Positions 4,584-56,952 of a stretch of 64,000 nucleotides of DNA are shown one piece after another. Position numbers and translations under genes: made by a program. The stretch lies in NCBI GenBank assembly GCA_007713595.1, contig VMRY01000015.1, positions 2,244-66,243 on the forward strand. The letters are read 5' to 3'. Source of the stretch: Sedimenticola thiotaurini (lineage in GTDB: Bacteria > Pseudomonadota > Gammaproteobacteria > Chromatiales > Chromatiaceae). How positions within the stretch are numbered: the stretch's first letter is position 1; each line of letters starts with the position of its first letter. Under the pieces are notes generated by a model, which saw only the letters and a program-made list of their open reading frames with translations, had not been told where the DNA came from and did not search any database.

Positions 4584-6845
4584 TCATGACGGCAGTTTTG
4601 CGTCGGGACGCAACGCCAGCATGAACACCAGGTAGATACCCAGCACCACCCACAAGGTGGTGGCCGCCTCGACATACGGCGAACCACCGTGCGACATGCC
4701 GAACAGGAATACGATCACCACGCCGGCCAGTGCGGCGAGAATAGCGAACAGGATGCCCATGGCAATTTTCCAGCCACTGAGCACTTCGCCCCGTTCACGC
4801 CGCTTCCGGCCGGGGCGCATCAGGAAAAAACCCGCCAGCAACACCACCGGGTAGGTATACAGGGTCAGGTTGAACAGCAATGCGTTGCGGTACAGGCTGT
4901 TTTCCATGCGTACCAGGAACGGGGTCCTGACACCCTGTCGAGCCAGCATCGCCCAGGCCGCATGGCGAATGTCGTAATCCTCGTTTTGCGTACCCTGCCT
5001 GAGCATCGCCTGGTCGACCGTGATGCTGTGCTGTCGCGAGCCGGCAGCCAGGCGATGCCAGATAGCCTGTTGCAAGGCCAGTGAGAATGTCTGGTAGCGA
5101 GGCAGCAGGCGCTGCGCAACGCCGGCCGCATCCTGCAGGGCGATACGCCGCAATACCTCCAGCCGCACCTGTTCGTCGAAAGTTTTGTCTTCAAACAGGC
5201 TGTACATGAATTCGAGTTGATCCAGTCCTTGCTGACCGGCATGCCGCAAAATGGCATCCAGCGCGAGCCCGGAAAGTGATCCGCGCGAGTTAACCAGGTC
5301 TTTTTTGAGCAGCGCTATGACCGGCTGATAGCGGCTGATCGAGTCATCATCCGGCAAGGACACCAGCACTGCACGCAGCAGCCCGCCGTTGTCGTGCTGA
5401 TCGAGCTCCCCGATGGCCAGTTGCACGGCCAGTAGCATGTTGTCCGGCGTAAACACCCGGTTATAGGCCAGGGTTTCGAGCACCGGCAACCGCAGCTTCC
5501 TGGAGGCCGGCGTCTGGTCATCCAGCGTCATGACAAGCAAATCATGTATCAAGTCATCGGAAAAAACCGCCTGGCCATCGCCGGGCTGTTTTTGCAAAGC
5601 GCGCCGGCTGTCGCTGTCGACAAACAGGTTGCGCAATTCATGTAGGTTTTTATAAAAGTCCGGGTATTGCATATAGGTACGCAAAAGGGTTTCCAGGGTC
5701 TGGTCGTCCAGTCCATGCAGTCGTTTTTCGCGCAGCAATATGCCAACCGGCGACACTGTCCGGCTGGCTGTCCTGAGCTGGCGGGACTGCTGCTCCAGCC
5801 GTAACAACTGTTGTATTTCGTCCGCATCCAGCGCTCGTTGTGAAACGATATCGCCGAACTGTCTCACTTGCGCGTCCAACACCTTGCGCTTGCCGGCCTC
5901 GTCCAGCCCACTGAACATCGACTTGCGCAGCTTTGCCTGACTTTGGGCCTGGCTGTCGAGCTGGATCGCCAGGCTGGACAAGGCGTCGCTGCATTGTTTG
6001 ATCAGCGTGTCGTCCTCAACCGTGGCGCAGTAGTCCTGCACCAGGCCGGCGCCATGGGCGGTTCTTTTTTCAGCGCGGATATACCAGTCCGTCAGCGCGT
6101 TCAGGGCCCGCCCCCTGAAATCACTTTTTTCATGCTCGCGGGCAACATGCCACAACAGCTGTTCGCTGCGTGCGGCATCGAAGATCAACTGCTGGCGTAT
6201 GATTCTCAACAGCGCATAGTCACGCTGGTAGCGGGTCGGTATGCTGAACGAATCCTTGACGAACTGCATGGCGGTATCGGGCAGCCACTGCACCGCCGAC
6301 CAGTGATCGAACATGGAATGATAAAAACCGATGCTGCTGTCACGGACATCCGGGTTCTGTCGCAACTGCCCGACAAGCCGGTTGGCATAACTCGCCACGC
6401 TGAGCGTGTCCGCGTCGACCAGGCGCTGTTTTTTGCTGACCGCCTCCAGTACCGCGGCCAGCCGATGATGCCAGTAACCCTGGCGCTGCTCGCAGGCCAA
6501 TGTCTGCTCGACCAGCGCATGCAGAGGCCCAGGCTGCAGATCAGAAAAGCCAATAAAGTCCAGCAGGGCCTGGATCACCGGGCGGACATACTGTGACGAG
6601 TTGACACCGCTTTGGTCGTGTTGCGGCAGGCAGGCATACTCGATCAGGGGCAGCAAGGCCGACTGCTCGGTCTTTGCCCGCAGCACCAGGCCGGTGATGG
6701 CCGCTTCGTGCTGATCCGCCGAACCCAGCTTATCTACCAGCCCGCTGAATGAAGATGCCGCCATGACCTCCTGGTCTTCGGCATTTGCCATGCAAACCGC
6801 AAGCAACAACACCAGCATGACAAAGCATCGATTAGATAATGACAT
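4584..6845 (-). CDS. Hypothetical secreted/membrane-anchored alpha-helical (HEAT-like) protein, about 750 aa
   Basis: Long ORF with a signal-peptide-like N-terminus (LVLLLAVCMANA), a Leu/Ala-rich helical body and three C-terminal TM segments; GGAGG upstream of ATG 6845. Confidence 0.7.
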   Translation of the reverse strand: MSLSNRCFVMLVLLLAVCMANAEDQEVMAASSFSGLVDKLGSADQHEAAITGLVLRAKTEQSALLPLIEYACLPQHDQSGVNSSQYVRPVIQALLDFIGFSDLQPGPLHALVEQTLACEQRQGYWHHRLAAVLEAVSKKQRLVDADTLSVASYANRLVGQLRQNPDVRDSSIGFYHSMFDHWSAVQWLPDTAMQFVKDSFSIPTRYQRDYALLRIIRQQLIFDAARSEQLLWHVAREHEKSDFRGRALNALTDWYIRAEKRTAHGAGLVQDYCATVEDDTLIKQCSDALSSLAIQLDSQAQSQAKLRKSMFSGLDEAGKRKVLDAQVRQFGDIVSQRALDADEIQQLLRLEQQSRQLRTASRTVSPVGILLREKRLHGLDDQTLETLLRTYMQYPDFYKNLHELRNLFVDSDSRRALQKQPGDGQAVFSDDLIHDLLVMTLDDQTPASRKLRLPVLETLAYNRVFTPDNMLLAVQLAIGELDQHDNGGLLRAVLVSLPDDDSISRYQPVIALLKKDLVNSRGSLSGLALDAILRHAGQQGLDQLEFMYSLFEDKTFDEQVRLEVLRRIALQDAAGVAQRLLPRYQTFSLALQQAIWHRLAAGSRQHSITVDQAMLRQGTQNEDYDIRHAAWAMLARQGVRTPFLVRMENSLYRNALLFNLTLYTYPVVLLAGFFLMRPGRKRRERGEVLSGWKIAMGILFAILAALAGVVIVFLFGMSHGGSPYVEAATTLWVVLGIYLVFMLALRPDAKLPS

Positions 6846-7064
6846 AACCCGGCATGACCTCCCTGTAATGTTGTTATTGCCCAAAGCATACAGACCTTGC
6901 CGGGCATGACAAAGCCGGGAGTATAGGAAGAATAAACGTCCATTTCACCCACATCTAACAGTTTTTGACTGCTGTTGACTCTCTCGGCAACCGTGCAATG
7001 CACCCCGAATCTGGCTGACGGGGAAACAGCAACGTTGAAAACTCGACCTCGGCTCCACACAATC

Positions 7065-7175
7065 CATGCCCTTGACAGCTGTATTGCCGCGATGAAACAG
7101 ACAGGACTAGAAATGTCGCAGGAGTTCAAGGAAACCTCGCTGGGAGGCCTTGTAGTCAGCATTACTGAGCGCTGA
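7065..7175 (+). pseudogene. 3'-terminal remnant of L-serine dehydratase (sdaA-like)
   Basis: LDSCIAAMKQTGLEMSQEFKETSLGGLVVSITE matches the SdaA C-terminal LD..I..M..TG..M...YKETS.GGL motif; no upstream body. Confidence 0.75.
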
Positions 7176-7323
7176 CATCATTGGAAGCGGAACTTACCAG
7201 ACAAAATAAATCAGGAGAACGAGGATTATACGAAGTATATTTTTCATCACCCCGATCCTGTTGGCATGATTTATACCATTGAAAAAGTTTGCTTGGCGGT
7301 GCCCGCCAGTGCCAGACCTGGAA

Positions 7324-8907
7324 TCACTCCCACTCAATTGTAGCCGGCGGCTTGCTGGATATGTCATAGGCCACACGGGAGATACCTGTGACTTCGTTGA
7401 TGATACGGCGGGATACCAGCTCCAGGAATTCAAATGGCAGGTGGGCAAACCGGGCAGTCATGAAGTCAACAGTCTCTACTGCACGCAGAGAGACCACATA
7501 CTCATAGCGACGCGCATCACCCACTACACCCACCGACTTGACCGGCAGAAATACTGCAAAGGCCTGGCTCACCTGATCATAGAGATCATGATTGCGCAGT
7601 TCCTGAATAAAGATATGATCCGCCTGCCGCAGGATATCGGCATAGGACTTCTTCACTTCACCCAGGATGCGTACGCCCAGACCAGGTCCTGGGAAGGGGT
7701 GGCGATAGACCATCTCAGAAGGCAAACCAAGCTCAACACCAATCTTGCGCACTTCGTCCTTGAACAGTTCACGCAGCGGCTCAACCAGCTTGAGCTTCAT
7801 GTAGTCCGGAAGCCCACCCACATTGTGGTGTGACTTGATCACATGGGCCTTACCTGACTTGGCACCGGCTGATTCGATCACATCCGGATAGATCGTTCCC
7901 TGTGCCAGGTAATCCACGCCTTGCAGCTTGGTCGCCTCCTCTTCGAAGATATCGATAAACAGGTTACCGATAATCTTGCGTTTCTTCTCTGGATCATTCT
8001 CGCCAGCCAGTGCATCCAGGAATCGTTGCTCTGCATCTACGCGAATCACCTTAACACCCATATGCTGGGCAAAGGTGGCCATAACCTGGTCACCTTCATG
8101 CAGGCGTAAAAGACCGTTATCAACAAAAATACAGGTCAGACGATCACCGATCGCCTTATGCAACATGGCCGCTACAACTGAAGAGTCAACACCACCGGAT
8201 AAACCAAGCAGTACCTTACCCTGCTCGCCCACCATCTCGCGGACATGGGTTATGCTGTCTTCAATAATACTGGCGGGGTTCCAGAGCGCCTCACAGCCAC
8301 AGATCTCAAAGAGGAAACGCTCAAGAATTCGCCCGCCCTGACGAGTGTGAGTCACCTCCGGATGGAACTGAATGCCATAAAATCCGCGCGACTCATCAGC
8401 CATACCCGCCAATGGCGCATTATCAGTTTCAGCAATAACCGTAAAGCCTTCTGGCAACACCTCGACCCGATCACCGTGACTCATCCAGACGTCAAGCAGT
8501 CCATAGCCTTCCGATGTGGTGTGATCTTCGATATCACGCAGCAGCTTGGAATGGCCTCTGGCCCTGACTTGGGCATAGCCATATTCATGGGCATCTGAAC
8601 CAGCAACCTTGCCACCGAGTTGTGCCGCCATCGCCTGCATGCCATAACAGATACCCAGCACTGGCACACCCAGTTCAAACACCCTATCCGGGACCCGGGG
8701 TGTGTCATCGGCCGTCACCGATTCCGGCCCGCCCGAGAGAATTACACCTACAGGGTTTTGTTCTTTAATCGCCTCTTCACAGTTATCGTAGGGCCAGATC
8801 TCACAATAGACTCCTGCCTCGCGAACGCGCCGGGCGATCAGCTGAGTATATTGAGATCCGAAATCAAGGATCATGATGCGGTGTGCGTGGATATCCTGAT
8901 TAGTCAT
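7324..8907 (-). CDS. guaA: GMP synthase (glutamine-hydrolysing)
   Basis: [31 protein letters not shown] and KPPATIEWE. Confidence 0.99.
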
Positions 8908-9002: not shown

Positions 9003-10496
<1,494 letters not shown>

Positions 10497-10588
10497 TCAG
10501 TAAACAGAGTATTATAAAATCTTGGCAATTCGAGGTAAACTCAAATTAGCAATTAATTATAGGCAAACTGGCCAAAAAAGACGGATTT

Positions 10589-38894: not shown

Positions 38895-39992
<1,098 letters not shown>

Positions 39993-40021
39993 TCATATCA
40001 ACATAAATGAAATTTAATTTC

Positions 40022-40142
40022 TTGACACAGTGCAGCATATATTAGAAACTGGTCATGTACTGAAGAACAGCTCAGTACACACTCCTCCATCCTCCTTTGG
40101 TGGATATATTTAACGCGGCAATCCACTTGCCGCGTTTTTTTT
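40022..40142 (+). ncRNA. Candidate sRNA (about 40057-40142) antisense to the queA-tgt direction, with its putative promoter
   Basis: TTGACA at 40022; hairpin GTACTGA/TCAGTAC; hairpin presenting a CTCCTTT loop; GC-rich hairpin followed by T8 on the + strand. Confidence 0.6.
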
Positions 40143-40151
40143 GTCTCGGTT

Positions 40152-41183
40152 TTAGGCCTGGCCAACCCGCTCAAGCAGCATCGCATCACCATAACTGAAA
40201 AAGCGATAGCGTTGTTCCACTGCATGCCGATAGGCCGCCATAATTCGCTCATAGCCCGAAAAAGCAGAGACCAACATCAGCAGGGTCGATTCAGGTAGGT
40301 GGAAATTAGTCACCATGGCATCAACACTGCGAAATTTATATCCGGGCGTAATAAAGAGCCGAGTGTCGCCATAGAATGGGTTGATTTCACCCTCCTGAGA
40401 GGCAGACTCAAGACTGCGCACGCTGGTGGTGCCCACTGCAATCACCCGCCCACCGCGCGTCCGTGTCGCCCTCACCTGTTCACAGACTGCCTCACTCACC
40501 TCAACATACTCACTGTGCATGACATGCTCTTCCAGCCGATCCACCCTGACCGGCCGAAAAGTCCCCGCCCCAACGTGCAGGGTTACATGGGCTTGTTCAA
40601 CACCTAAATCATCCAGCCTAGTCAACATCGCCTGATCGAAATGGAGTCCTGCAGTAGGGGCAGCCACCGCCCCCTCTCGACGCGAATAGACGGTCTGATA
40701 GCGCTCTACATCGAGTGCCTCATCATCACGCTCGATATAGGGCGGGAGAGGAATATGCCCGGACTGCGCCATGAGACTGGGCAGATCCAATTCAACTGCA
40801 GCTACCAGAAACAGATCATCCTCGCGTCCAAGCACTTCCAAAACGCCACCACCATCCAGCAAGATAAGGTTCCCCGGCTTGGGTGATTTGCTCGCTTTAA
40901 TATGAGCAAGTCCCCGCTCTGGCTCCAGCACCCGCTCGATTAGCAGTTCAACACGCCCACCACTCTCCTTCCGACCATAAAGTCTGGCGCGCATCACCCG
41001 GGTATCATTAAACACCAGCAGATCACCTGGATTGAGCAAGCTAGGCAGATCGGTGAACTGACGATCGACTGCCTCCTGCACTCCCGCAGGCAGGTGGAGC
41101 AGACGGCTATCCTGCCTGTTCCGGGTAGGAAACTGGGCAATCAGCTCATCAGGCAGTTCATAATGGAAATCAGATGTTTGCAT
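40152..41183 (-). CDS. queA: S-adenosylmethionine:tRNA ribosyltransferase-isomerase
   Basis: [23 protein letters not shown] and [10 protein letters not shown]. Confidence 0.99.
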
Positions 41184-41288: not shown

Positions 41289-41375
41289 GCCGGGGTGGTG
41301 AAATTGGTAGACACAGGGGATTCAAAATCCCCCGGGGGCAACCCCTTGTCGGTTCGAGTCCGACCCTCGGTACCA
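41289..41375 (+). tRNA. tRNA-Leu(CAA)
   Basis: 87-nt cloverleaf with long variable arm; anticodon stem GGGGA/TCCCC with loop TTCAAAA; GGTTCGAGTCC T-arm; encoded CCA. Confidence 0.97.
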
Positions 41376-41738: not shown

Positions 41739-43673
41739 ATGGAGTTCAACACGAATAAAGAGCATGGTGGACTGGTCACATCTACCGTTCGAGGGAACAG
41801 AACCAGTGCAACCCCGGTAAATGATTGCATTGTTCAATCCTGGAAACGTTGTCTTGAGGATTATGATCTCGATCCTGAACGACGACCTGAACCGGTGGTG
41901 GTTGACAGATCGGAACTCAAAGAGCGCCAGGAAAAATCCTGCAGGCTGGTGGAGATCGCCCGCTCAGAGATGACCAATCTCTATCAGCAGGTGGCAGGTT
42001 CTGGGCACTCCATTCTGCTCACTGACAATGACGGTGTCGTACTCAATTATGTCGGTGATCCAATGTTCACCAATACCGCCGTCAAGACAGCACTGCAGAC
42101 GGGTGCGATCTGGAGTGAAAAGACCCAGGGCACCAACGGTATGGGTACCTGCCTAGTTGAGAAAAGGCCACTGATTATTCATCAGGATGAGCACTTCTTT
42201 TCAAAGAACACCCGGCTGACCTGCTCGGCTGCACCCATCTTCGATCCAACCGGTGAACTGGTGGCAGTCCTGGATGCCTCTGGTGAATCCAGACAAGCCC
42301 AACAACACACCATGGTGTTGGTCAACATGTCGGCACAGTTGATCGAGAACCGTCTGTTTCTCTGCAAGATGCGGGACAACTATATACTGCGTTTCCACAG
42401 TCGGCCGGAATTCATCAGCACGCTCGGTGAAGGGGTCATTGCCTTCAATGAAGAGGGACGCATTCAGGCCGCCAACCGTAGCGCCCTGTTCCAACTCGAC
42501 ATGAAAGATATTATAGGTCGCCCCTTCGAAGAGTTGTTTAGTCTTCGAACCAATCATGCACTTAGCAATGCACAGAATCAGGCGATGGTGCCCCTACCCG
42601 TGCGGGACGCCAATCAGGGCAGACGTTTCTATGCAAGCTTCCAACCGCCCAATCCAGACACGGGCGGTAAACGACCCATTGCCCGCTCGGCCCGTGCATT
42701 TGTCAAAGAGACGATCAGCGAAACACCCACTCTGGAAGATCTCGAATTTGGCGACAACCGCATGCGCCACAATATCGAGCGAGCAAAAAAGCTGCTGGAA
42801 CTGGATATCCCCTTTATCCTGCTGGGCGAAACCGGCTCGGGCAAAGATGTATTCGCCAATGCCGTACATAAGACCAGCAGCCGGGCAAATAAACCCTTTG
42901 TCGCGGTCAACTGCGCTTCACTACCTGAGACTCTGATCGAGAGCGAGCTATTCGGTTATCGCCCCGGCGCCTTTACCGGAGCCAGTAAGGAGGGCTCACG
43001 GGGAAAGATCGCCCAGGCCCATGGTGGCACCCTGTTCCTGGATGAGATCGGTGATATGCCGCTGCATCTGCAGGCGCGGCTGTTACGGGTACTGGAAGAG
43101 CGTGAAGTGATACCGCTGGGTAGTGAAACACCGATCAAGGTGGATATACGCCTGATCAGCGCCACCCATCAGAACCTTCAACTGCAGATCGAAGATGGCA
43201 GTTTCCGGGAGGATCTTTTCTACCGGCTGAATGGCATCAGCCTGCAGATGCCGCCGCTGCGTGACAGGGAAGACCGGCGCGCCCTGATCCAGCATATCAA
43301 GCAACTGGAGGCTGGAGGCGAAGACAAAGTCGTCATTGATGACGAGGCACTGGATGCCCTGGAGCATTACGAGTGGCCCGGCAACATGCGCCAGCTACGC
43401 AATATCATGCGCACCCTGATCGGCCTCTGCGACAATAACCGCATAACGGTCGATGATCTGCCCGAAGAGATTTTTAGCAACAGCAGCGAGCTGGGTGAAC
43501 CGAGACAGCGAGTCAGACCCAGTAACCCGTTGGATATCGCCGAACGTGACGCGATCATTCGTGAACTGGAGGCCGCCCACTGGAATGTCACTCGGGTTGC
43601 CACGAAATTGAACATCAGCCGCAACACTCTGTACCGCAAAATGAAACGGTACGATGTAAAACCCCCACGCTAG
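41739..43673 (+). CDS. GAF-domain sigma54-dependent activator (AcoR/AcxR-like, Fis HTH)
   Basis: SW.RC GAF start, GTNGMGT, GETGSGKD, ESELFGY, GAFTGA, FLDEIGDM and SRNTLYRKM. Confidence 0.95.
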   Translation: MEFNTNKEHGGLVTSTVRGNRTSATPVNDCIVQSWKRCLEDYDLDPERRPEPVVVDRSELKERQEKSCRLVEIARSEMTNLYQQVAGSGHSILLTDNDGVVLNYVGDPMFTNTAVKTALQTGAIWSEKTQGTNGMGTCLVEKRPLIIHQDEHFFSKNTRLTCSAAPIFDPTGELVAVLDASGESRQAQQHTMVLVNMSAQLIENRLFLCKMRDNYILRFHSRPEFISTLGEGVIAFNEEGRIQAANRSALFQLDMKDIIGRPFEELFSLRTNHALSNAQNQAMVPLPVRDANQGRRFYASFQPPNPDTGGKRPIARSARAFVKETISETPTLEDLEFGDNRMRHNIERAKKLLELDIPFILLGETGSGKDVFANAVHKTSSRANKPFVAVNCASLPETLIESELFGYRPGAFTGASKEGSRGKIAQAHGGTLFLDEIGDMPLHLQARLLRVLEEREVIPLGSETPIKVDIRLISATHQNLQLQIEDGSFREDLFYRLNGISLQMPPLRDREDRRALIQHIKQLEAGGEDKVVIDDEALDALEHYEWPGNMRQLRNIMRTLIGLCDNNRITVDDLPEEIFSNSSELGEPRQRVRPSNPLDIAERDAIIRELEAAHWNVTRVATKLNISRNTLYRKMKRYDVKPPR

Positions 43674-43709: not shown

Positions 43710-43725
43710 TGGCCCGAGCCTTGCA
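43710..43725 (+). promoter_or_regulatory. sigma54 (-24/-12) promoter
   Basis: TGGCCCGAGCCTTGCA has exact GG-N10-GC spacing, 40 nt upstream of the operon start. Confidence 0.75.
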
Positions 43726-43765: not shown

Positions 43766-44266
43766 ATGAGCCGCTTTGCTGTACGGGTCCATCCTGGCGA
43801 ACTCCATTTCAACGCCGCACACTTCATCACCTTCAACCAGTGCTGCGAAAACATTCATGGCCACAACTTCCACCTAAAACTGGAGGCGCAAGGTAACAAC
43901 ACCCTAGATGGGTTCGTTATTGATTTTGTTCAGTTAAACAGGCTGGCTGCCGAGATCTGCAGTGAACTGCATGACGGCGTACTCATCCCAACCCAGAGCA
44001 AAGAGGTGACACTGACCGAACGTGACAATGACATGCTGGAGATCCGCAGTTATGACAAGTGTTTCATCCTCAGTCGCTCCAGCTGCATTCTGTTGCCGAT
44101 AGCCAACACCACAGCCGAGATGCTCGCTTACCACATCAGCAATCGACTGATTGAATCACTCCAGGCGCATCAGGGCTTGGGGAATCTAAAAACCCTGGAA
44201 ATCGCCGTGGAAGAGGCGGACCAGCAGTGGGGCATCTATCAGTGTGAACTATCCCATGACGGATAA
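43766..44266 (+). CDS. COG0720 (PTPS/QueD-fold) pterin synthase with the C-E-x2-H-G-H motif
   Basis: FNAAHF, CENIHGHNF, VIDF and NTTAE. Confidence 0.88.
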   Translation: MSRFAVRVHPGELHFNAAHFITFNQCCENIHGHNFHLKLEAQGNNTLDGFVIDFVQLNRLAAEICSELHDGVLIPTQSKEVTLTERDNDMLEIRSYDKCFILSRSSCILLPIANTTAEMLAYHISNRLIESLQAHQGLGNLKTLEIAVEEADQQWGIYQCELSHDG

Positions 44267-44807
44267 AATACGCACAGCCTGGGCTATTACCGGCTCGGGC
44301 CACTACCTGAAAGAGTGCCTGACACTGGCGGAGCAGCTCCCCGATGTTGATCTGTTCCTGAGCAAGGCGGCGGCCGAAGTGTTGCAGGTCTATGGCTTTC
44401 CCATAAAAGCATTGAAACAGCGGTTTAAGATCTTTCACGACAGTACCGCCAGCGCACCACCTGTCGGCCTGTTTTATGAAGGTATCTATGAGCAATTGAT
44501 CGTCGCACCCGCCACCTCCAACAGCGTAGCCAAAATGGTCTGTGGCATTTCTGACTCACTGGTCACCAATGTCTATGCCCAGGCAGGTAAGTGTCGCATC
44601 CCCAGTATTGTATTTGCCTGCGATGCAGCACCAGAGATGGAGACAGAAGCACCCGGCGGCACCGTCATGGTCTATCCCCGGCGCATTGATCTGGAAAACA
44701 CCCAACGCCTGATGGATTTTGAATACACCCAAGTAGTCACCTCACTTCAGTCACTCAAGGATGCCATTGGCATACCGGCCCTATGTCAGAACATCTCCTC
44801 TTTCTGA
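44244..44807 (+). CDS. AfpA/DmrB-like flavoprotein (dihydromethanopterin reductase candidate)
   Basis: AWAITGSGH and APATSNSVAKMVCGISDSLVTN flavoprotein motifs; H4MPT context. The true start may be ATG 44259. Confidence 0.85.
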   Translation: MNYPMTDKIRTAWAITGSGHYLKECLTLAEQLPDVDLFLSKAAAEVLQVYGFPIKALKQRFKIFHDSTASAPPVGLFYEGIYEQLIVAPATSNSVAKMVCGISDSLVTNVYAQAGKCRIPSIVFACDAAPEMETEAPGGTVMVYPRRIDLENTQRLMDFEYTQVVTSLQSLKDAIGIPALCQNISSF

Positions 44808-46177
44808 CCGGATCACTGGCCGAGACCAGCCTGAAACAGGTGCTGCATGAGATGGCACCAACCCCGGTGACCTGGGAAGTGCAGCCTCTGAAAATTAAAG
44901 TCGCCGCCCTGTTGACCGGTGAGATGATCAAACGACAGCTACCCCACACCGGCAACGCCGGGCGCGTAATAATCCCCGGCCGATGTTGTGGTGACCTGGA
45001 CGCACTAAGTGAACACTTTGGCGTCCCCTTTCAGCGCGGCCCGGAAGAGTTGCGTGATCTACCCGAATGGTTGGGGCAGGCTGGCAGGCCACCCGACCTG
45101 ACACAACACGATGTGCTGATTTTTGCAGAGATTGTCGATGCACCTAACCTGACATCCGAAGCCATCTGCCAACAGGCGGAACGCTTTCGACAGCAGGGCG
45201 CTGATGTGATTGATTTGGGTTGTCTGCCCGACCAGCCATTTCCCCACCTGGCCGAGAGCATGCGGTTACTCAAATCGCAAGGCTTCAAGGTCAGTGTTGA
45301 TTCACATCGAAGCGAAGAGCTTTTAACCGGCGGCAAAGCGGGTGCAGATTATCTGCTCAGCCTGACCGAAGAGACGCTGTGGATTGCAGACGAGGTCGAA
45401 TCAACCCCCATCATCATCCCAACCAGCTCTGGCGATCTGGCGAGCTTACAGCGATCCTGGGAGCAACTCACCGCCAAGGGACGTACCTGTTTTCTAGATC
45501 CTATCCTTGATCCGATCCATTTTGGTTTTACCGAATCTATCGTACGTTACCACCAAGCCCGTCAACGCCTGCCAGAGGCCATGATGATGATGGGCGTAGG
45601 CAACCTGACTGAGCTCACCGAAGCGGACACCAGCGGCATCAATGCCCTACTATTTGGCATCATCTCCGAACTGCATGTGGGTGCGGTACTGACCACGGCC
45701 GTCAGCCCCCACTGCCGATCCGCCATTCGTGAGGCGGATCTGTCACGGCGTATCATGTTTCGTGCACGGGCCGATCGCAGCCTGCCCAAACGGCTGCATG
45801 CTGGCCTGAGTAACCGTCACGCCCTTAACCCCTTCCCTTACACGCCAGCCGAGATAGAAACAGCGGCCGACCAGGTGAAGGACCGAAACTTCCGCATCCA
45901 GGTCAGCAAAGAGCATATTCACATCTACAACCGGGAAACCCTACTTCACGCGACCGACCCCTATGATCTGTTTCCCCATCTGGGCGTTGAAGAGAATGGC
46001 AGCCACGCCTTCTATCTTGGGGTGGAGCTGGCCCGCGCCGAGATTGCACTGCAACTGGGAAAGCGCTACACACAGGACCAACTGCTTGACTGGGGGGCCG
46101 CCTGCGCGCCCGTAGAAAAAGACCAGCTCACCTATGCCAAACCGGGCAGCACCAAGCAGCGCAAAAAAGTATCTTGA
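44783..46177 (+). CDS. Dihydropteroate synthase-like pterin-binding protein (Orf20)
   Basis: LFLTGSLAE start, GADVIDLGC, SVDS, DPILDPI and GVGNLTELTEAD. Confidence 0.88.
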   Translation: MSEHLLFLTGSLAETSLKQVLHEMAPTPVTWEVQPLKIKVAALLTGEMIKRQLPHTGNAGRVIIPGRCCGDLDALSEHFGVPFQRGPEELRDLPEWLGQAGRPPDLTQHDVLIFAEIVDAPNLTSEAICQQAERFRQQGADVIDLGCLPDQPFPHLAESMRLLKSQGFKVSVDSHRSEELLTGGKAGADYLLSLTEETLWIADEVESTPIIIPTSSGDLASLQRSWEQLTAKGRTCFLDPILDPIHFGFTESIVRYHQARQRLPEAMMMMGVGNLTELTEADTSGINALLFGIISELHVGAVLTTAVSPHCRSAIREADLSRRIMFRARADRSLPKRLHAGLSNRHALNPFPYTPAEIETAADQVKDRNFRIQVSKEHIHIYNRETLLHATDPYDLFPHLGVEENGSHAFYLGVELARAEIALQLGKRYTQDQLLDWGAACAPVEKDQLTYAKPGSTKQRKKVS

Positions 46178-47418
46178 AGTGGAGCCTATTAGGTTGGCCC
46201 AGCTCTTGCTCCCTTCAACCGATAATGAACACATACAATAGGCTGAATACTTTGGCGTCTGTTAGCTGCCCCTTCTGTGCCATGGTTTGTGACGATCTGT
46301 CACTGCCACTACACAATGAACAAACTATTCCTGGTCAGGGCACCTGCGAAAAAGCGGTTACCGGATTCACCCTTGCACTTGAGGCAACCCAGGCGATGCC
46401 GCTGTTAAAGGGTAAAGAGATCACCTGGACAGAGGCGCTGACCAAGGCCGGTGCCCTGTTAAGAGAGGCGAATCACCCCCTGATACATGGCCTGATCGGG
46501 GATCTTATCGACAGCAAGGCCGCACATAAACTGGCCGAGCATTTTGCAGGTACGGTTGATCACCGGCATGGTGATGCAATCGCCCGCAATCTACGCATCT
46601 ATCAGCAAGGGGGTTGGCAGGTCAGTAGTATGGGTGAAGTACGTAATCGGGCGGATCTGGTTATTTTGGTGTGTGACGACCTGGAAACCACCCTGCCCCG
46701 GCTGCAAGAAAAAGTATTGCACAGTGAAGCGCGGCTGCACACCTCTGCTCCACCAACCGTTTATACGCTAGATGAAAATCGACTTGAGACACTCTCGATC
46801 CTGCGCGCACGTCTGGCCAACAAGCCGTTGCAAACCGATACTTCGGCGACCGATGAACTGCTGTCGCTCATAAACAAAGCCGACTACCCCGTATTCATGA
46901 TCGGGCCACTACAAGATAAAGCGACCGAGCTGATCATACGCACCTGTGTGGGCCTGGTACGTGATATGAATGAGCAACAGCGTTGTGCGCTCCTGCTGCT
47001 CGGGACAGGTGAAGGCGACATCACTGCACAACTGAGCGGCGCCTGGCATAACGGTTTTGGCATCCGCACCAGCTTTACAAAAGGCTATCCGGTTCAGGAT
47101 CTACAGATGCATTCTGGAGATCGCTTGCTGCAGTCTGGGGAATCTGACCTGCTGGTCTGGATCAGCACCCTAAGTAGCGATCCACCACCTAACGTAACCC
47201 AGCCGACTATCGTTATCGGACATCCTGCCATGACCTTCAAAACTGACCCGCCCGAGCTATTCTTGCCTGTCAGTATTCCCGGCATTCATCGTGCCGGTTA
47301 TCTGCATCGTGCCGATGGTCTGCGCATGGTACCGCTCAATGCCTTGATAGAGAGTCCACTCTCAAGCAGTGCTGCACTCTGTGAGCAGTTGATCGCACAG
47401 GAGCCACGCCCATGTTGA
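46174..47418 (+). CDS. fhcB: Formyltransferase/hydrolase complex subunit B (FwdB homologue)
   Basis: CPFCAMVCDDL, GEVRNRADLV and RADGLRMVPL. The true start may be ATG 46225. Confidence 0.88.
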   Translation: MKWSLLGWPSSCSLQPIMNTYNRLNTLASVSCPFCAMVCDDLSLPLHNEQTIPGQGTCEKAVTGFTLALEATQAMPLLKGKEITWTEALTKAGALLREANHPLIHGLIGDLIDSKAAHKLAEHFAGTVDHRHGDAIARNLRIYQQGGWQVSSMGEVRNRADLVILVCDDLETTLPRLQEKVLHSEARLHTSAPPTVYTLDENRLETLSILRARLANKPLQTDTSATDELLSLINKADYPVFMIGPLQDKATELIIRTCVGLVRDMNEQQRCALLLLGTGEGDITAQLSGAWHNGFGIRTSFTKGYPVQDLQMHSGDRLLQSGESDLLVWISTLSSDPPPNVTQPTIVIGHPAMTFKTDPPELFLPVSIPGIHRAGYLHRADGLRMVPLNALIESPLSSSAALCEQLIAQEPRPC

Positions 47419-49046
47419 CTCGACTCAAAGGCGCACGCCTCTATGATCCGGTGAATCAGATTAACGGCGAGGTTGGTGATGTGTGGATTCGGGATAACCT
47501 GATCTGCGCCGCACCGGATAACCCTGCAGAAGCAGACAAGACCATTAACCTCGAAGGCAAGATATTAATGGCGGGGGCGATTGACATCCACAGTCATATC
47601 GCGGGCGGTAATGTGAACAGTGCCCGTGTTTTACTGCCAGAACAGCATCTGGCAGAACAGGCCCGCTACCCTCAGCACCCGTTTTCATCAGCCAAGTGGT
47701 CAGCTGCTGATACGGGCTATCGCTATGCCGAGATGGGATTTACCACCGTGGTAGAGCCTGCCGTGTTACCTATCAACGCGGCTCAGGTCCATGCCGAGCT
47801 GGCTGATATACCGATTATTGATACCGCTGGCCTGGCCATTGTCGGTAATGATGATTTTCTCCTGCGGATGCTGCGGTATAAGGCAGAGCAGGCACGCATC
47901 AATGACTATATCGCCTGGACCTTACACGCCACCCAATGCCTGGGAGTGAAGGTCATCAATGCCGGTGGGGCCACGGCATTCAAGTTTAATCAGCGCCAGC
48001 TCAATCTGGATGATGAAGTTCCGATGTACGGCATGAGCTCGCGGGACATTCTAACTGCCGTACAACGTGCCGTGGTGCAATTGGGCATTGCCCACCCGGT
48101 ACACGTTCACTGCAATAACCTGGGTATACCGGGCAATGTCTCTACCGCGCTGGAGACCATCAAGGCGGCGGAGGGTATGCCCATGCATCTCGCGCATGTG
48201 CAGTTCTATGGCTATGGTGACCAAGGCGATAGTGGCTTTTCATCTGGAGCCAAGGCCCTGGCTGACGCCGTTATGGCCAACCCAAATATTACGGTCGATG
48301 TTGGCCAAGTGCTATTTGGTCAAACCGTCACCATCTCCGGCGATGTGATGCGTCAATTTGATGCCCGACATATCGCCAACCCGAAAAAGTGGGTGGTATG
48401 GGAAGGTGAGGATGGCGGCGGCGGTATTGTGCCGTTCCAGTATCGTCCGAAAAACCAAGTCAATGCCCTGCAATGGGCTATCGGTCTGGAACTGTTCCTG
48501 CTGATCGATGATCCATGGCGCATCTTCTTCACCACCGATCACCCCAATGGTGCACCGTTCACTGCTTACCCGGAGCTGTTCAGGTTACTGATGGACCGCG
48601 ACTACAGAAACCTGTGGCTGGATAAGATCAACGCAAAATCGGCTGATATATCCCTGTTACGTCATCTGGATCGGGAGTATGACTTGTATGAGATCGCCAT
48701 CATGACTCGCGCTGCTCCGGCCAAGCTCCTGGGGCTGAGTGACCGGGGACATCTCTCTGTTGGTGCCATTGCTGACATTGCCGTTTACCAACCACAAGAT
48801 AATAAAGCAGCCCTATTTGGCAAAGCCGAACTGGTATTGAAAGATGGCGTTACGGTAGTTGAAAAAGGTCAGGTGGTTCACTCACTACAGGGTAAGACCC
48901 ATGCGGTTGCCCCTGGTTTCGATAGTGCTATTGAATCAGCAGTAAGCAGGTATTTTGACCGTTATCACCTGATGAAAATGGACCACTACAAACTTAGTCC
49001 ACAACATCTCCTTGAAACAGTAGGCAGTGAACTGGTACTGCACTGA
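47412..49046 (+). CDS. fhcA: Formyltransferase/hydrolase complex subunit A (FwdA-like amidohydrolase)
   Basis: GAIDIHSHIAGG, GVKVINAGG, HVHCNNLG, TTDHPNG and TRAAPAK.LG. Confidence 0.96.
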   Translation: MLTRLKGARLYDPVNQINGEVGDVWIRDNLICAAPDNPAEADKTINLEGKILMAGAIDIHSHIAGGNVNSARVLLPEQHLAEQARYPQHPFSSAKWSAADTGYRYAEMGFTTVVEPAVLPINAAQVHAELADIPIIDTAGLAIVGNDDFLLRMLRYKAEQARINDYIAWTLHATQCLGVKVINAGGATAFKFNQRQLNLDDEVPMYGMSSRDILTAVQRAVVQLGIAHPVHVHCNNLGIPGNVSTALETIKAAEGMPMHLAHVQFYGYGDQGDSGFSSGAKALADAVMANPNITVDVGQVLFGQTVTISGDVMRQFDARHIANPKKWVVWEGEDGGGGIVPFQYRPKNQVNALQWAIGLELFLLIDDPWRIFFTTDHPNGAPFTAYPELFRLLMDRDYRNLWLDKINAKSADISLLRHLDREYDLYEIAIMTRAAPAKLLGLSDRGHLSVGAIADIAVYQPQDNKAALFGKAELVLKDGVTVVEKGQVVHSLQGKTHAVAPGFDSAIESAVSRYFDRYHLMKMDHYKLSPQHLLETVGSELVLH

Positions 49047-49053
49047 GGCGCTT

Positions 49054-49626
49054 ATGAGTGAACGCATTCATGAAGTTATCGTGATTACCCACAACCATGA
49101 TGGCTCACCCCACATGGCACCCATGGGTATTCGTCAGCGCAACAAAAACTGGCTGATCGCCCCATTTCGCCCGTCACGCACACTGGAAAACCTGCTGCGA
49201 GAGGGTGTAGCCACTCTCAATACCACAGACGATATGCGTATCTATGCAGGCTGTCTGACAAAACACTATGACTGGCCATTGGTTGAATGTGAGAAAATAA
49301 ACGGCCATCGATTGAAAGATGCACTCAGTCATAAAGAGATCCAAGTAGAGCAGGTAATAGAAGACACGCAACGACCACAACTGCTATGCAAGGAGATCCA
49401 TCAAGTGAATCACCGCCCTTTCAGTGGTTATAACCGGGCGCAGGCCGCCGTACTGGAGTTGGCCATACTGGTAAGCAGACTGCATCTACTCACCGAAGAA
49501 AAACTGAACAGTGAGATCAACTACCTGCAGATCGCAATAGAGAAAACGGCGGGAAGAAGTGAACGAGAGGCATGGAATTGGCTAATGCAATCGGTAGATG
49601 ACTATCGTAAGAGGAATTGCGCATGA
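49054..49626 (+). CDS. DUF447 family protein (Orf19-like)
   Basis: PHMAPMGI, PFRPSRTLENL, NRAQAAVLELAI..SR and IEKTAG. Confidence 0.88.
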   Translation: MSERIHEVIVITHNHDGSPHMAPMGIRQRNKNWLIAPFRPSRTLENLLREGVATLNTTDDMRIYAGCLTKHYDWPLVECEKINGHRLKDALSHKEIQVEQVIEDTQRPQLLCKEIHQVNHRPFSGYNRAQAAVLELAILVSRLHLLTEEKLNSEINYLQIAIEKTAGRSEREAWNWLMQSVDDYRKRNCA

Positions 49627-50339
49627 CCGGTCTGCTTGCCAGCATCTGCTCTGTGGAAGAGGCGGACATTGCACTGCACTCCTATGTCGATATTATTGAC
49701 TGCAAGGATCCGACGCGTGGTGCCTTGGGTGCCCTTGACCTGGACCTGATCGCATCCATAGTTGATTTAGTTAATGGCGAACGTCCGGTCAGCGCCACCA
49801 TTGGTGATCTACCGGCCGATCCAAAACGGATACGGCATGCCGTCAGAAATACAGCAGACTGTGGCGTTGATTACATCAAGCTCGGTCTGTTTGAAGAGAC
49901 AACTGCCGCGCCATGCATAATGGCAATGAAAGAAGAGTGTAAACATAATCAGCTTATTGCTGTCTGTTTTGCCGATCTGTTTGATCCCATGCCCCTGCTC
50001 CCACTGCTTTCCACACAAGGTTTTCATGGCGTAATGATCGACACGGCAGAAAAAAAGAGTGGTCGACTGACTGATCTCTGGAGCCTGACCCACCTTGCAC
50101 GCTTTATCGATCAAGCTCAACTGCTCGGCTTAGTCTGTGGATTGGCTGGTCGCCTCACACTCGACGCCATCCCCTCCCTGCTACCCTTGCAGGCCGACTA
50201 CCTGGGATTTCGCAGCGCCCTGTGCGTCAGTGATCGCACAAGCCAACTCGATCATCGGGCCGTTATGCGTGCGCGTAACGCCATGCCTTTTGGTTTTGAT
50301 GTACCGACCATCAACACGGCATTTGTGGCTGTACATTGA
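49623..50339 (+). CDS. mfnB: 4-HFC-P synthase MfnB (DUF556)
   Basis: LLASI.SVEEA, IIDCKDP..GALGA, YIKLGL, GVMIDTAEK and GFRSALC. Confidence 0.92.
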   Translation: MTGLLASICSVEEADIALHSYVDIIDCKDPTRGALGALDLDLIASIVDLVNGERPVSATIGDLPADPKRIRHAVRNTADCGVDYIKLGLFEETTAAPCIMAMKEECKHNQLIAVCFADLFDPMPLLPLLSTQGFHGVMIDTAEKKSGRLTDLWSLTHLARFIDQAQLLGLVCGLAGRLTLDAIPSLLPLQADYLGFRSALCVSDRTSQLDHRAVMRARNAMPFGFDVPTINTAFVAVH

Positions 50340-50704
50340 TGGCGCTCTGCCCTGAAATTTTTCGTCAACGCGCCATAATCGAAGGACTCTACGGCATTAA
50401 CGAGATAAATGAACAGACGGTGTCACAGGTTCTCCAGGTCATGACCAAGACACTCGGGATGACGCCCATCGCTGATCTGCTTATTTTCTCACCCGATCAT
50501 GTCAGTGAATTACATCATGGTATTGGTGGCTTCCAGGCCTGGGCAGAATCCGGCTGTTCACTCTATACCTGGCGTGAGCAAAAACTGTTTACTCTGGAAC
50601 TCTATTCATGCAAACCGTTCCAAGTCAGCGACTGCATTCTCAAGCTGCAACAACTTCTCAAGGTGGAACGTGTTGAGTGGCGTAACATTCCCTCTGACTC
50701 ATAA
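50336..50704 (+). CDS. Divergent AdoMet-decarboxylase-fold (pyruvoyl-type) protein
   Basis: GIGGFQAWAESGCSLYTW...ELYSC aligns without gaps to the class 1b SpeD core GVSGVVVISESHLTIHTW...DLFTC. Confidence 0.75.
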   Translation: MMALCPEIFRQRAIIEGLYGINEINEQTVSQVLQVMTKTLGMTPIADLLIFSPDHVSELHHGIGGFQAWAESGCSLYTWREQKLFTLELYSCKPFQVSDCILKLQQLLKVERVEWRNIPSDS

Positions 50705-54988: not shown

Positions 54989-55675
54989 TTGAATATCATC
55001 CCTGTCATTGATCTGTTAGACGGCCAGTCGGTCCACGCCAAACTCGGACGGCGAACTGAGTACCGGCCACTGAACTCACCTTTGTGCCAACAGGGTGAAG
55101 TTCTTCCACTGATACAAAGACTCTGTGATGACTTCGGCATGCAGCAACTCTACATTGCCGACCTGAATGCCATACAGGGCAAGGGTGATAACCACTTGAC
55201 CCTGCACCGCATTGCTCACAGCTTTCCTGACCTGACACTATGGATTGATGCCGGCTTCGCCACACCTGATGCCATTCAGACATTACAATCCTCTGTTACA
55301 TGTCGCCCGGTCATCGGTTCCGAGAGTTGGCAATACACCAAACCCTTTGCAAATGACCAGGCTATAATACTCTCTGTTGACTCTGTTGATGGCGTGCTGC
55401 GTGATCTTTCCGGTATCACAACCGATACCAGACGACGCCCGAATACATTAATCCTGATGAATCTCGCCCGCGTTGGCTCACAACGGGGCCCAGATATCGA
55501 TCTGCTTTCACTCTGGAGCAAAACCGCACCTGGCGCCGAACTGTACATGGCAGGCGGCGTACGCCATTGTGATGATCTGTTAACCCTGCAGGCAGCCGGT
55601 GCCAGCGGTGTTTTACTCGCCAGTGCAATACACAGTGGTGCCTTGACTGCTACTGATCTCACTGCATTCAGTTGA
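54989..55675 (+). CDS. HisA/HisF-related TIM-barrel protein of H4MPT clusters
   Basis: NIIPVIDLLDGQSVHA, LYIADLNAI, WIDAG, VIGSES and GGVR; TTG start inferred from homologue-like length. Confidence 0.82.
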   Translation: MNIIPVIDLLDGQSVHAKLGRRTEYRPLNSPLCQQGEVLPLIQRLCDDFGMQQLYIADLNAIQGKGDNHLTLHRIAHSFPDLTLWIDAGFATPDAIQTLQSSVTCRPVIGSESWQYTKPFANDQAIILSVDSVDGVLRDLSGITTDTRRRPNTLILMNLARVGSQRGPDIDLLSLWSKTAPGAELYMAGGVRHCDDLLTLQAAGASGVLLASAIHSGALTATDLTAFS

Positions 55676-56894
55676 CCTGACATGCCGCCACCGTCGACTG
55701 ACCAAACTTATTAAGTAAGCGTTTTCTGTTGGCCGCCTGTGCTGGCAAATTTTTAAACGGATGCAGCACCGGATCAGATCCTGCCGCCTGTTGTTCCGCC
55801 AGCGTACGTCCTTGATAATCACACCAGGAGTTAGTCGTTTCATATAAGCGGATACCACTTAACCCTGGCAGATAGTCTATCAGCTGCTCCCAGATATAGA
55901 CGCAGAGCATCTCCGTACTGGAACGCCAGGCCAGCTCCTCTGCGGCATAGTTAAGATGGTGGTGATCAAACCGCTCAATAATCAGTTGATTAACCACTTG
56001 TTTGAGATAACCATAATCAACGACACAACCCGTTACCGGATCAATTCGTCCAGTCACTTCAACCTGTAATACATAGCGCCCACCATGCAGATTGGAACAC
56101 TTCGCCGGGTGATCCGTTATAAAATGCGCAGAGTCAAACACCAGCTCTTTAGTTACACTCGCCTGCGGTGTTTCAGCTTTAAATCTTTCCCAGGCAGTGG
56201 GTATGGCAATCAACCGACTCTTCAGCAGATCAAGCAGCTTGATACCATCAGCCAAGGTCTGGGTTCTCAGAAGCAACTCATCCGACGAGTCTGATAGTTT
56301 CAACTGTTGACATTGAATATTGAAATCACGGGCCAGCTGTTCGCGCACAGACTCTGCATAGATGGGTCGACTGAACGCCATAAACAGATAGCCGGCATGC
56401 CACTCTGCAACGTGCGCCATATAGACAGCCAGCGCACCAAGAAAAGCGGGAGGCGGCTCAGGCGTGGCCCATTCGTTGACCAGGTTTCGCAACGGAACAC
56501 GCAACCGGTTTTTTGCGACTACGCGGTGAGAGTCGGCACGGTACTCATAATCCTGATGAAACTGGAATCCGTAATCGCTCAGATAATCCAGCGCCCAGAG
56601 CAGCAGATCCAGACGACGCACCTCGCCCGGCACTTCTACGAAAGCATCACGCTCTTGCAGCAGTCCAGACCAGCGCAGACCCAACAACGTTTGGCGGGCG
56701 GCTTCTGTCGGCCTTGCAACAGGGCGGGAATAATTATCAACATGATCAGGCAGATTGATCTGATCACTGTGCAGAATCATATCCAACGGAAGATGGTGAC
56801 GTATGGCATACTCCTGAAGTGTCAGGCTACTGCAGTTAAGCAGATGACCATTATCCAGTTGGTATATTGTTTCACCGCATTCCAGACACTGCAT
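55668..56894 (-). CDS. Fusion protein: Zn-finger-like N-terminus, degenerate LAGLIDADG-like middle, PTPS/QueD-fold C-terminus
   Basis: MQCLECG...HL...LTLQEYA; C-terminal FDSAHF, CSNLHGG, VVDY..LK, FDHHHLN and LYET; GGGAG RBS before ATG 56894. Confidence 0.75.
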   Translation of the reverse strand: MQCLECGETIYQLDNGHLLNCSSLTLQEYAIRHHLPLDMILHSDQINLPDHVDNYSRPVARPTEAARQTLLGLRWSGLLQERDAFVEVPGEVRRLDLLLWALDYLSDYGFQFHQDYEYRADSHRVVAKNRLRVPLRNLVNEWATPEPPPAFLGALAVYMAHVAEWHAGYLFMAFSRPIYAESVREQLARDFNIQCQQLKLSDSSDELLLRTQTLADGIKLLDLLKSRLIAIPTAWERFKAETPQASVTKELVFDSAHFITDHPAKCSNLHGGRYVLQVEVTGRIDPVTGCVVDYGYLKQVVNQLIIERFDHHHLNYAAEELAWRSSTEMLCVYIWEQLIDYLPGLSGIRLYETTNSWCDYQGRTLAEQQAAGSDPVLHPFKNLPAQAANRKRLLNKFGQSTVAACQVN

Positions 56895-56952
56895 AGACAA
56901 CTCCCGTAATGACAAAGGATGTGTGGGGCCCACCGGACCCCACAGCATTCAC

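What the first reader, a model, noticed from the sequence alone, without database searches (positions are those of the whole stretch)
43766..44266. PTPS with the C-E-x2-H-G-H motif heading the methanopterin operon: candidate FolB-bypass entry step
Seen: CCENIHGHNF, directly upstream of dmrB-like and the dihydropteroate synthase-like orf20. Established: in COG0720, E-x2-HGH (PTPS-III) enzymes cleave dihydroneopterin triphosphate to 6-hydroxymethyl-dihydropterin, and CE-x2-HGH marks dual I/III enzymes. That pterin is the methanopterin precursor. Inference: a dedicated pterin supply for bacterial H4MPT rather than a queuosine QueD.
Basis: partly seen in the sequence, partly recalled or inferred. 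Interest (0 to 1): 0.62.

Follow-up and report, generated by a model that had tools for sequence, protein, structure and literature searches.

The report
Plasmodium-type pterin synthase heading methanopterin operon
The first gene of this one-carbon cofactor operon encodes a PTPS-III-type pterin enzyme that most likely makes the pterin building block of methanopterin directly from dihydroneopterin triphosphate. It runs in parallel with the cell's ordinary folate enzyme FolB, and public databases label its relatives as the queuosine enzyme QueD.

Summary
ORF 43766-44266(+) encodes a 166-aa PF01242 protein with C26-C27-E28-N-I-H31-G-H33. Genes for a DmrB/AfpA flavoprotein and a DHPS-like protein follow and overlap it.

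By sequence and predicted fold it is a Plasmodium-type (PTPS-III) enzyme, not a QueD:
- PDB hits to Plasmodium PTPS have E about 1e-18 over the full length, against 0.017 for E. coli QueD.
- The AlphaFold model (pLDDT 96) matches Plasmodium PTPS at TM about 0.9.
- E28 aligns with the Plasmodium vivax catalytic residue E37.

In its genus the gene occurs only in the four genomes that carry the H4MPT island, whereas FolB and QueC are in all ten. C-E-type relatives lie beside H4MPT and methanofuran genes in at least five phyla (51 of 80 loci).

The best reading is a separately regulated route from dihydroneopterin triphosphate to 6-hydroxymethyl-dihydropterin for methanopterin. It skips FolB chemically but does not replace it, because FolB is present.

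It is not a general part of bacterial H4MPT synthesis: 15 of 16 Mch-positive Pseudomonadota sampled lack it.

Nothing biochemical was tested. I rate it a new member of a known kind, of moderate interest.

The parts
41739..43673 (+). Sigma-54-dependent activator (GAF-PAS-AAA+-HTH_8) directly upstream
   Evidence: Pfam Sigma54_activat 224 bits, plus GAF, PAS_4 and HTH_8. A homologue lies directly upstream of the PTPS gene in 7 related proteobacterial loci, L017-L023.
43710..43725 (+). Sigma-54-type promoter-like site TGGCCCGAGCCTTGCA (TGGC-N7-TTGCA), 40 nt before the ATG
   Evidence: The closest locus, L023, has TGGCCCGGCGCTTGC at the same place. By count alone it is not significant (4 matches in the window against 2.45 expected). 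Position is the only argument, so this is an inference.
43766..44266 (+). PTPS-III-type (Plasmodium-type) COG0720 enzyme, 166 aa
43841..43870 (+). Active-site motif C26-C27-E28-N-I-H31-G-H33-N-F. The zinc ligands are H19, H31 and H33. E28 aligns with P. vivax E37.
   Evidence: The titles of PDB 3m0n and 3lze name E37 the catalytic residue.
44244..44807 (+). DmrB/AfpA-type dihydromethanopterin reductase flavoprotein. The likely start is ATG 44256, which overlaps the PTPS stop.
   Evidence: PF02441. PDB 3wis/4mwg at E 4.5e-55. Start position read.
44783..46177 (+). Dihydropteroate-synthase-like protein (DUF6513 + TIGR00284 + PterinBD-DUF4346), the presumed user of the activated pterin
   Evidence: It is adjacent to the PTPS gene, or separated from it only by afpA, in most of the 17 related loci that carry it.
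46174..50704 (+). Rest of the overlapping gene chain: fhcB, fhcA, DUF447, MfnB-like 4-HFC-P synthase, AdoMetDC-like gene
   Evidence: Every junction overlaps by 4-25 nt. No + strand terminator-like site lies between 43500 and 51200.

Best explanation
The gene encodes a zinc-dependent T-fold enzyme of the PTPS-III (Plasmodium-type) branch of COG0720. It most likely takes 7,8-dihydroneopterin triphosphate, which this genome makes with FolE2, and cleaves the side chain to give 6-hydroxymethyl-7,8-dihydropterin in one step. E28 would act as the catalytic base, next to the zinc held by H19, H31 and H33. One of the two FolK kinases would then pyrophosphorylate the product. The DHPS-like protein two genes downstream would join it to ribofuranosylaminobenzene phosphate made by MptG. 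DmrB, the next gene, would later reduce the dihydro cofactor. The gene is the first of eight overlapping genes behind a sigma-54-type promoter and next to a sigma-54 activator, so pterin supply for methanopterin can be switched on with the pathway, independently of the housekeeping FolB-FolK route for folate. Shown here: family, fold, motif, gene order, co-occurrence. Inferred: substrate, product, regulation.
For: PF01242 at 62.8 bits, but below the QueD equivalog cut-off (52.3 against 89.25). The best solved relatives are P. vivax and P. falciparum PTPS at E 6.5e-19 and 1.2e-18 over residues 6-156, including the roughly 35-aa insertion; E. coli QueD scores E 0.017. The AlphaFold model has pLDDT 96.2. 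Foldseek gives TM 0.87-0.91 and rmsd about 2 A to Plasmodium PTPS, but about 0.5 to QueD and PTPS-II. E28 aligns with the P. vivax E37 'catalytic residue', and archaeal PH0634 also has E-x2-HGH. In the tree the long-form family separates from QueD with 100/98 support. In the genus, the long-form PTPS is in G000, G003, G004 and G006, which are exactly the Mch-positive genomes. It is also in the Mch-positive family member G017 and in none of the 14 Mch-negative family genomes. 51 of 80 C-E loci from Pseudomonadota, Planctomycetota, Chloroflexota, Gemmatimonadota and Thermodesulfobacteriota have H4MPT or methanofuran genes within 8 kb. DmrB and the DHPS-like gene follow directly. Literature: PTPS-III makes the hydroxymethyl-dihydropterin and is used for H4MPT in some Archaea (PMC5041015; PMC9894224).
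Against: There is no enzymology or genetics for this clade. FolB and two FolK are present, so the cell does not need this route. 15 of 16 Mch-positive Pseudomonadota sampled have no such gene, so H4MPT synthesis works without it. The conserved Cys27 is unexplained by a pure PTPS-III role. The Asp-His pair found in most of the family (LDH) reads H69-D70 here, and S-D or Y-D in close relatives, so the chemistry could differ. 29 of 80 C-E loci, for example in Ktedonobacteria, show no H4MPT neighbour.
Confidence: 0.68

Rival explanations
1. It is a true dual PTPS-I/III enzyme. It supplies hydroxymethyl-dihydropterin for methanopterin and also serves as the cell's QueD, making 6-carboxy-tetrahydropterin for queuosine.
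For: It has the hybrid motif C-E-x2-HGH, and Cys27 is conserved in all 120 near homologues. The literature says such hybrids can serve both pathways (PMC5041015). The genome has queE, queC, tgt and queA. Its most QueD-like protein (window 55668-56948) has H-G-G instead of H-G-H.
Against: Genus genomes G001, G002 and G007 (99-100% complete) have QueC but neither this gene nor the QueD-like fusion. Their only PF01242 member is a two-domain protein of about 290 aa, which G000 also has (C97:52143-52994). A QueD role is therefore already covered. The gene is not linked to que genes. It scores below the QueD cut-off. The Asp-His pair of the QueD triad is not kept.
Confidence: 0.12
2. It acts in methanopterin synthesis but on a different substrate or with a different product from classical PTPS-III. 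Examples are dihydroneopterin monophosphate or cyclic phosphate as substrate, as suggested for Archaea, or a methanopterin-specific pterin intermediate as product.
For: The review notes that archaeal PTPS-III in H4MPT synthesis may use the monophosphate (PMC5041015). The proteobacterial clade sits on a long, fully supported stem (length 1.15, support 100/100) and has swapped or lost the Asp-His pair. Cys27 is conserved beside Glu28.
Against: The genome's cyclohydrolases are the FolE2 type, whose usual product is the triphosphate. Both copies resemble each other and neither lies in the island. All pterin-binding and zinc residues shared with Plasmodium PTPS are kept.
Confidence: 0.15
3. It is simply QueD, as the public names of its homologues say ('6-carboxytetrahydropterin synthase'), and lies near queA-tgt by ancestry.
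For: NCBI names for homologues. queA and tgt lie 2.6-4.9 kb upstream on the other strand. The C-x3-HGH motif is present.
Against: All the points listed against the dual-role rival apply. In addition, queA-tgt-yajC-secD is a separate conserved block, divided from this gene by a tRNA-Leu gene and a regulator gene. The gene's distribution follows Mch, not QueC.
Confidence: 0.03

Closest known systems
Plasmodium falciparum / P. vivax PTPS (PDB 1y13, 2a0s), the prototype PTPS-III
   Same: Same long form of about 165 aa with the extra beta-hairpin insertion. Three zinc histidines. Glu at -3 from HGH aligned with catalytic E37. Predicted fold TM about 0.9.
   Different: 27-30% identity. Plasmodium has R-E where this protein has C-E. 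Plasmodium keeps L-D-H-H where this protein has L-H-D-G. The Plasmodium enzyme serves folate synthesis in an organism without FolB; this one sits in a methanopterin operon in a genome that has FolB.
Bacterial PTPS-III that replace FolB in folate synthesis (Pribat et al. 2009 and Phillips et al. 2012, cited from PMC5041015; neither paper could be read here)
   Same: Same family and the E-x2-HGH signature. Five Gammaproteobacteria in my sample carry long-form R-E-type genes; four of these lie beside a pteridine reductase gene.
   Different: Those form a separate clade, lack Cys at -4, and are not linked to H4MPT genes. Here FolB is present.
Archaeal PTPS-III involved in tetrahydromethanopterin synthesis (PMC5041015; for example Pyrococcus PF1278/PH0634, PDB 2dj6)
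   Same: Same proposed role, pterin entry into methanopterin. E-x2-HGH is present.
   Different: The archaeal proteins are the short form (115 aa) with W-E, and match only residues 14-69 here at E 3.7e-7.
QueD / PTPS-I (E. coli 4ntk)
   Same: T-fold, zinc site, and Cys at -4.
   Different: E 0.017, TM about 0.5, no insertion, Gly instead of Glu at -3, intact Asp-His pair, and a distribution tied to que genes.

Membership tests
PTPS-III (COG0720 subfamily) | PF01242 T-fold with three zinc-binding histidines | tested here: met
   PF01242 at 62.8 bits. H19, H31 and H33 are conserved. Model pLDDT 96.2.
PTPS-III (COG0720 subfamily) | Signature E-x2-HGH (Glu three residues before HGH) | tested here: met
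   E28-N-I-H31-G-H33. The Glu is invariant in the alignment and aligns with P. vivax E37.
PTPS-III (COG0720 subfamily) | Closest characterised relatives are PTPS-III enzymes | tested here: met
   Plasmodium PTPS at E 1e-18 and TM 0.9, against QueD at E 0.017 and TM 0.5.
PTPS-III (COG0720 subfamily) | Converts dihydroneopterin triphosphate to 6-hydroxymethyl-7,8-dihydropterin; rescues folB mutants | not testable with these tools
   Needs an enzyme assay and complementation.
FolB-replacing PTPS-III (the 'bypass' in the strict sense) | Genome lacks folB | tested here: not met
   FolB at C139:6793-7170 (113.9 bits), followed by folK. FolB is also present in all other genomes of the family that carry the gene.
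QueD / PTPS-I | C-x3-HGH motif | tested here: met
   C27 lies four residues before H31.
QueD / PTPS-I | Reaches the curated QueD equivalog score (TIGR03367) | tested here: not met
   52.3 bits against a cut-off of 89.25.
QueD / PTPS-I | Co-distribution with the preQ0 genes queC and queE | tested here: not met
   QueC is in all 10 genus genomes. This gene is in only 4 of them, the Mch-positive ones.
QueD / PTPS-I | Cys-Asp-His catalytic triad | tested here: not met
   The family's L-D-H reads L-H69-D70 here, and S-D or Y-D in close relatives.
Dual PTPS-I/III | Hybrid motif C-E-x2-HGH | tested here: met
   C27-E28.
Dual PTPS-I/III | Physiological need: no other QueD candidate and no FolB in the genome | tested here: not met
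   FolB is present. The two-domain PTPS protein at C97:52143-52994 is the sole family member in island-free relatives that have QueC.

The most novel reading that the evidence does not exclude
The C-E-type long-form PTPS found in H4MPT islands of at least five bacterial phyla is a functional subclass of its own. In this reading the conserved Cys-Glu pair carries out chemistry that differs from classical PTPS-III, and in the proteobacterial clade so does the swapped Asp/His pair. The difference could be a different phosphorylation state of the substrate or a methanopterin-specific pterin product. That would define an undescribed entry step of bacterial methanopterin synthesis.
Probability: 0.12. 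Interest if true: 0.65.

Novelty: new member of a known kind. Interest (0 to 1): 0.4.

Why it matters
Bacterial methanopterin synthesis is only partly mapped, and how the pterin half enters the pathway has mostly been assumed to go through the folate enzymes. A separately regulated PTPS-III at the head of the operon would show that some sulfur oxidisers, Thiobacillus relatives, Planctomycetes and Chloroflexi uncouple methanopterin pterin supply from folate supply. It also corrects a systematic database label, since homologues are named '6-carboxytetrahydropterin synthase'. This is the kind of paralogue over-annotation described for COG0720 in PMC5041015. The prediction can be tested directly with standard E. 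coli folB and queD complementation and one enzyme assay.

Tried and rejected
1. From memory I first equated this gene with 'orf19' of the Methylobacterium/Methylosinus island orf19-orf20-afpA-orf21-orf22 (PMC3615186). I dropped this. None of the 15 other Mch-positive Pseudomonadota in the sample has a long-form PTPS. I could not read the papers that define orf19.

2. Phillips 2012, Pribat 2009, Kalyuzhnaya 2005, Chistoserdova 2005 and de Crecy-Lagard 2012 are not held. A prior description of the bacterial H4MPT link therefore cannot be excluded.

3. The search for related loci with the 40-sequence alignment A1 failed because it had no conserved stretch. The 12-sequence alignment A2 worked, but it searched only the pattern CE[NRK][LI]HGHN[FY]. 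The 80 loci are therefore biased towards the C-E type.

4. The look-up of encoding contigs for two x-E representatives returned contigs of only about 1 kb, with no usable context.

5. My first sigma-54 pattern used the wrong spacing, N8. The corrected N7 pattern finds the site, but the count is not above chance.

I could not test FolB presence in Planctomycetes or Chloroflexi that carry C-E-type genes, or in the five R-E-type genomes.

Full report
**Observation**

ORF 43766..44266 on the + strand starts with ATG and encodes 166 aa. Residues 26-35 read C-C-E-N-I-H-G-H-N-F, at nt 43841-43870. The protein matches Pfam PTPS (PF01242) at 62.8 bits against a cut-off of 22.4. It stays below both NCBIfam cut-offs: QueD equivalog 52.3 against 89.25, and the PTPS/QueD subfamily 56 against 125.5.

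The next gene overlaps its stop codon. The listed start is GTG 44244, but ATG 44256 is more likely. This gene matches the solved 'dihydromethanopterin reductase (AfpA)' 3wis/4mwg at E 4.5e-55. The third gene (44783-46177) is the DHPS-like TIGR00284 protein with DUF6513.

**The operon**

Eight genes from 43766 to 50704 overlap by 4-25 nt at every junction:
- the PTPS gene
- dmrB/afpA
- the DHPS-like gene
- fhcB and fhcA
- a DUF447 gene
- an MfnB-like gene
- an AdoMetDC-like gene

No + strand terminator-like site lies inside this stretch.

Directly upstream is a GAF-PAS-AAA+-HTH sigma-54 activator gene (41739-43673). Forty bases before the ATG lies TGGCCCGAGCCTTGCA, a near-consensus -24/-12 element. 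The closest related locus has TGGCCCGGCGCTTGC at the same place. By count alone the motif is not above chance, so this is an inference from position.

The rest of the window carries pabB, mfnD/E/F-like genes, fae, a citG-like gene, mptN, mch, mtdB, mptG and fhcD. The gene therefore heads one operon of a large H4MPT and methanofuran island.

**What kind of PTPS it is**

Sequence search of the PDB puts P. vivax and P. falciparum PTPS first, at E 6.5e-19 and 1.2e-18. The alignment is full length and includes the roughly 35-residue insertion. The archaeal PH0634 follows at 3.7e-7 and E. coli QueD at 0.017.

An AlphaFold model built on a 40-sequence alignment has mean pLDDT 96.2. Its best structural matches are again the Plasmodium enzymes, with TM 0.87-0.91 and rmsd about 2 A. 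QueD and the mammalian PTPS reach about 0.5.

The depositors' titles of 3m0n and 3lze call P. vivax E37 the catalytic residue. In the alignment E37 pairs with E28 of this protein. H19, H31 and H33 (zinc ligands), E118 and E149/E150 are conserved across the family.

Published motif rules are CxxxHGH for PTPS-I (QueD), CxxxxxHGH for PTPS-II, ExxHGH for PTPS-III, and CExxHGH for I/III hybrids. PTPS-III enzymes make the 6-hydroxymethyl-dihydropterin, and some Archaea use PTPS-III for methanopterin (PMC5041015; PMC9894224).

Among 150 representatives of the whole protein universe, 137 of the 146 with HGH have Glu at -3, and 61 also have Cys at -4. All 120 near homologues are C-E.

**Is it the cell's QueD?**

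The genome (99.98% complete) has the following:
- queE and queC (C53:45298-46642)
- tgt and queA (window 38895-41183)
- no type-IA FolE
- two FolE2 genes
- three PF01242 genes

The three PF01242 genes are this one, a 426-aa fusion next to fae, and a 283-aa two-domain protein.
- The fusion's C-terminal domain is QueD-like but reads C-S-N-L-H-G-G, so the third zinc histidine is lost.
- The two-domain protein (C97:52143-52994) has C-x4-HGH in its second half.

Across the ten genomes of the genus, QueC is universal. Genomes G001, G002 and G007 (99-100% complete) contain only the two-domain protein. That protein is therefore the likely housekeeping QueD, and this gene is not needed for queuosine.

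**Co-occurrence**

In the genus, the long-form PTPS is present in G000, G003, G004 and G006, which are exactly the genomes with Mch. It is in none of the 14 Mch-negative genomes of the family. FolB is in 30 of 31 relatives, including every carrier.

Outside the family, a pattern scan of GTDB species found 512 C-E relatives. Of the best 80 loci, 51 have H4MPT or methanofuran genes within 8 kb. The arrangements are conserved within groups:

| Group | Gene order |
|---|---|
| Gamma- and Betaproteobacteria | activator, PTPS, (afpA), DHPS-like, DUF447, mfnB-like |
| Planctomycetota | mch, mptN, citG-like, PTPS |
| Anaerolineae and a Desulfovibrionaceae genome | PTPS, DHPS-like, (DUF447), mptG |

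Ktedonobacteria loci show no such neighbours.

**Limits of the link**

In an even sample of 401 Pseudomonadota, Mch is in 16 genomes and the long-form PTPS in 6. Only this genome has both. Classical Mch-positive proteobacteria therefore make methanopterin without it.

The five other long-form carriers have R-E, not C-E. Four of the five lie beside a pteridine reductase gene (NF006598, above cut-off for the L128 copy, the one scanned), and three of those also beside a MidA-like gene. These are the same neighbours that folB-folK have in this genome. Another relative has a K-E-type gene directly after folE2. In the tree these x-E genes form their own clade. The proteobacterial C-E/H4MPT clade has 100/100 support on a long stem, and the whole long-form family is separated from QueD at 100/98.

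**An unexplained detail**

Where most of the family, Plasmodium and QueD have L-D-H (the Asp-His of the classical triad), this protein has L-H69-D70. Its closest relatives have H-D, S-D or Y-D, and one has T-N. The R-E clade has also lost the His. The triad thus appears dispensable when Glu is present, but different chemistry cannot be excluded.

**Conclusion**

The finding stands. This is a PTPS-III-type enzyme placed at the head of a methanopterin operon. It most likely gives a one-step, separately regulated route from dihydroneopterin triphosphate to 6-hydroxymethyl-dihydropterin. That product is then activated by one of two FolK and used by the DHPS-like enzyme.

It bypasses FolB chemically but does not replace it. 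The kind of enzyme and its use for methanopterin in Archaea are already known. Substrate, product and regulation remain untested.

Noticed in passing
window 55668-56948 (-): A 426-aa ORF directly after fae. Its C-terminal domain is clearly QueD-like (79 bits; E. coli QueD at E 4.5e-18) but reads C-S-N-L-H-G-G, so the third zinc histidine is Gly. About 260 extra N-terminal residues give only a weak ROS/MucR hit. It co-occurs with the island in G003, G004, G006 and G017.
   Followed up: partly
genome contig C97:52143-52994 (-): A 283-aa protein with two PTPS domains and C-x4-HGH in the second. It is the only PF01242 member in genus genomes that lack the H4MPT island but have QueC, so it is the likely real QueD. 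It has no close solved structure (best E 0.006).
   Followed up: partly
window 41289-41375 (+): A tRNA-Leu(CAA) gene sits immediately before the first island gene (the activator, at 41739). The island is present in only 4 of 10 genomes of the genus, which suggests a horizontally acquired island at a tRNA site. GC content shows no clear step.
   Followed up: partly
window 41739-43673 (+): The sigma-54 activator with GAF and PAS sensor domains is conserved directly upstream of the PTPS gene in seven proteobacterial loci. In Thiobacillus its stop codon abuts the PTPS start. Its signal is unknown; formaldehyde or methanol are guesses.
   Followed up: no
genome contigs C53:7544-8341, C48:15215-16120, C139:6793-7678, C153:9230-9730: The genome has no type-IA GTP cyclohydrolase but two FolE2 paralogues, one next to a formate dehydrogenase gene. 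It has two FolK genes: folB-folK beside a pteridine reductase gene, and pcnB-folK-panBC.
   Followed up: partly
L126, L128, L129, L130 (genomes G204, G052, G196, G372): Long-form R-E-type PTPS-III genes lie next to a pteridine reductase gene, and in three of the four also a MidA-like methyltransferase gene. G220 (L127) has a similar SDR neighbour that was not scanned against NCBIfam. These are the neighbours that folB-folK have in the window's genome, so they are probable FolB replacements. FolB absence was not checked.
   Followed up: partly
L132 (genome G019) 6845-8199 and 10042-10548: folE2 is directly followed by a K-E-type long-form PTPS. A second PTPS-like gene nearby reads FGPAQRLHGATY, which is the published PTPS-IV signature FGPAQ.
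   Followed up: no
homologues P0003, P0006, P0033, P0050 and others: Public records name these proteins '6-carboxytetrahydropterin synthase' (QueD), although the window's protein, to which they are 70-83% identical, scores below the QueD equivalog cut-off. This is a likely systematic mis-annotation.
   Followed up: partly
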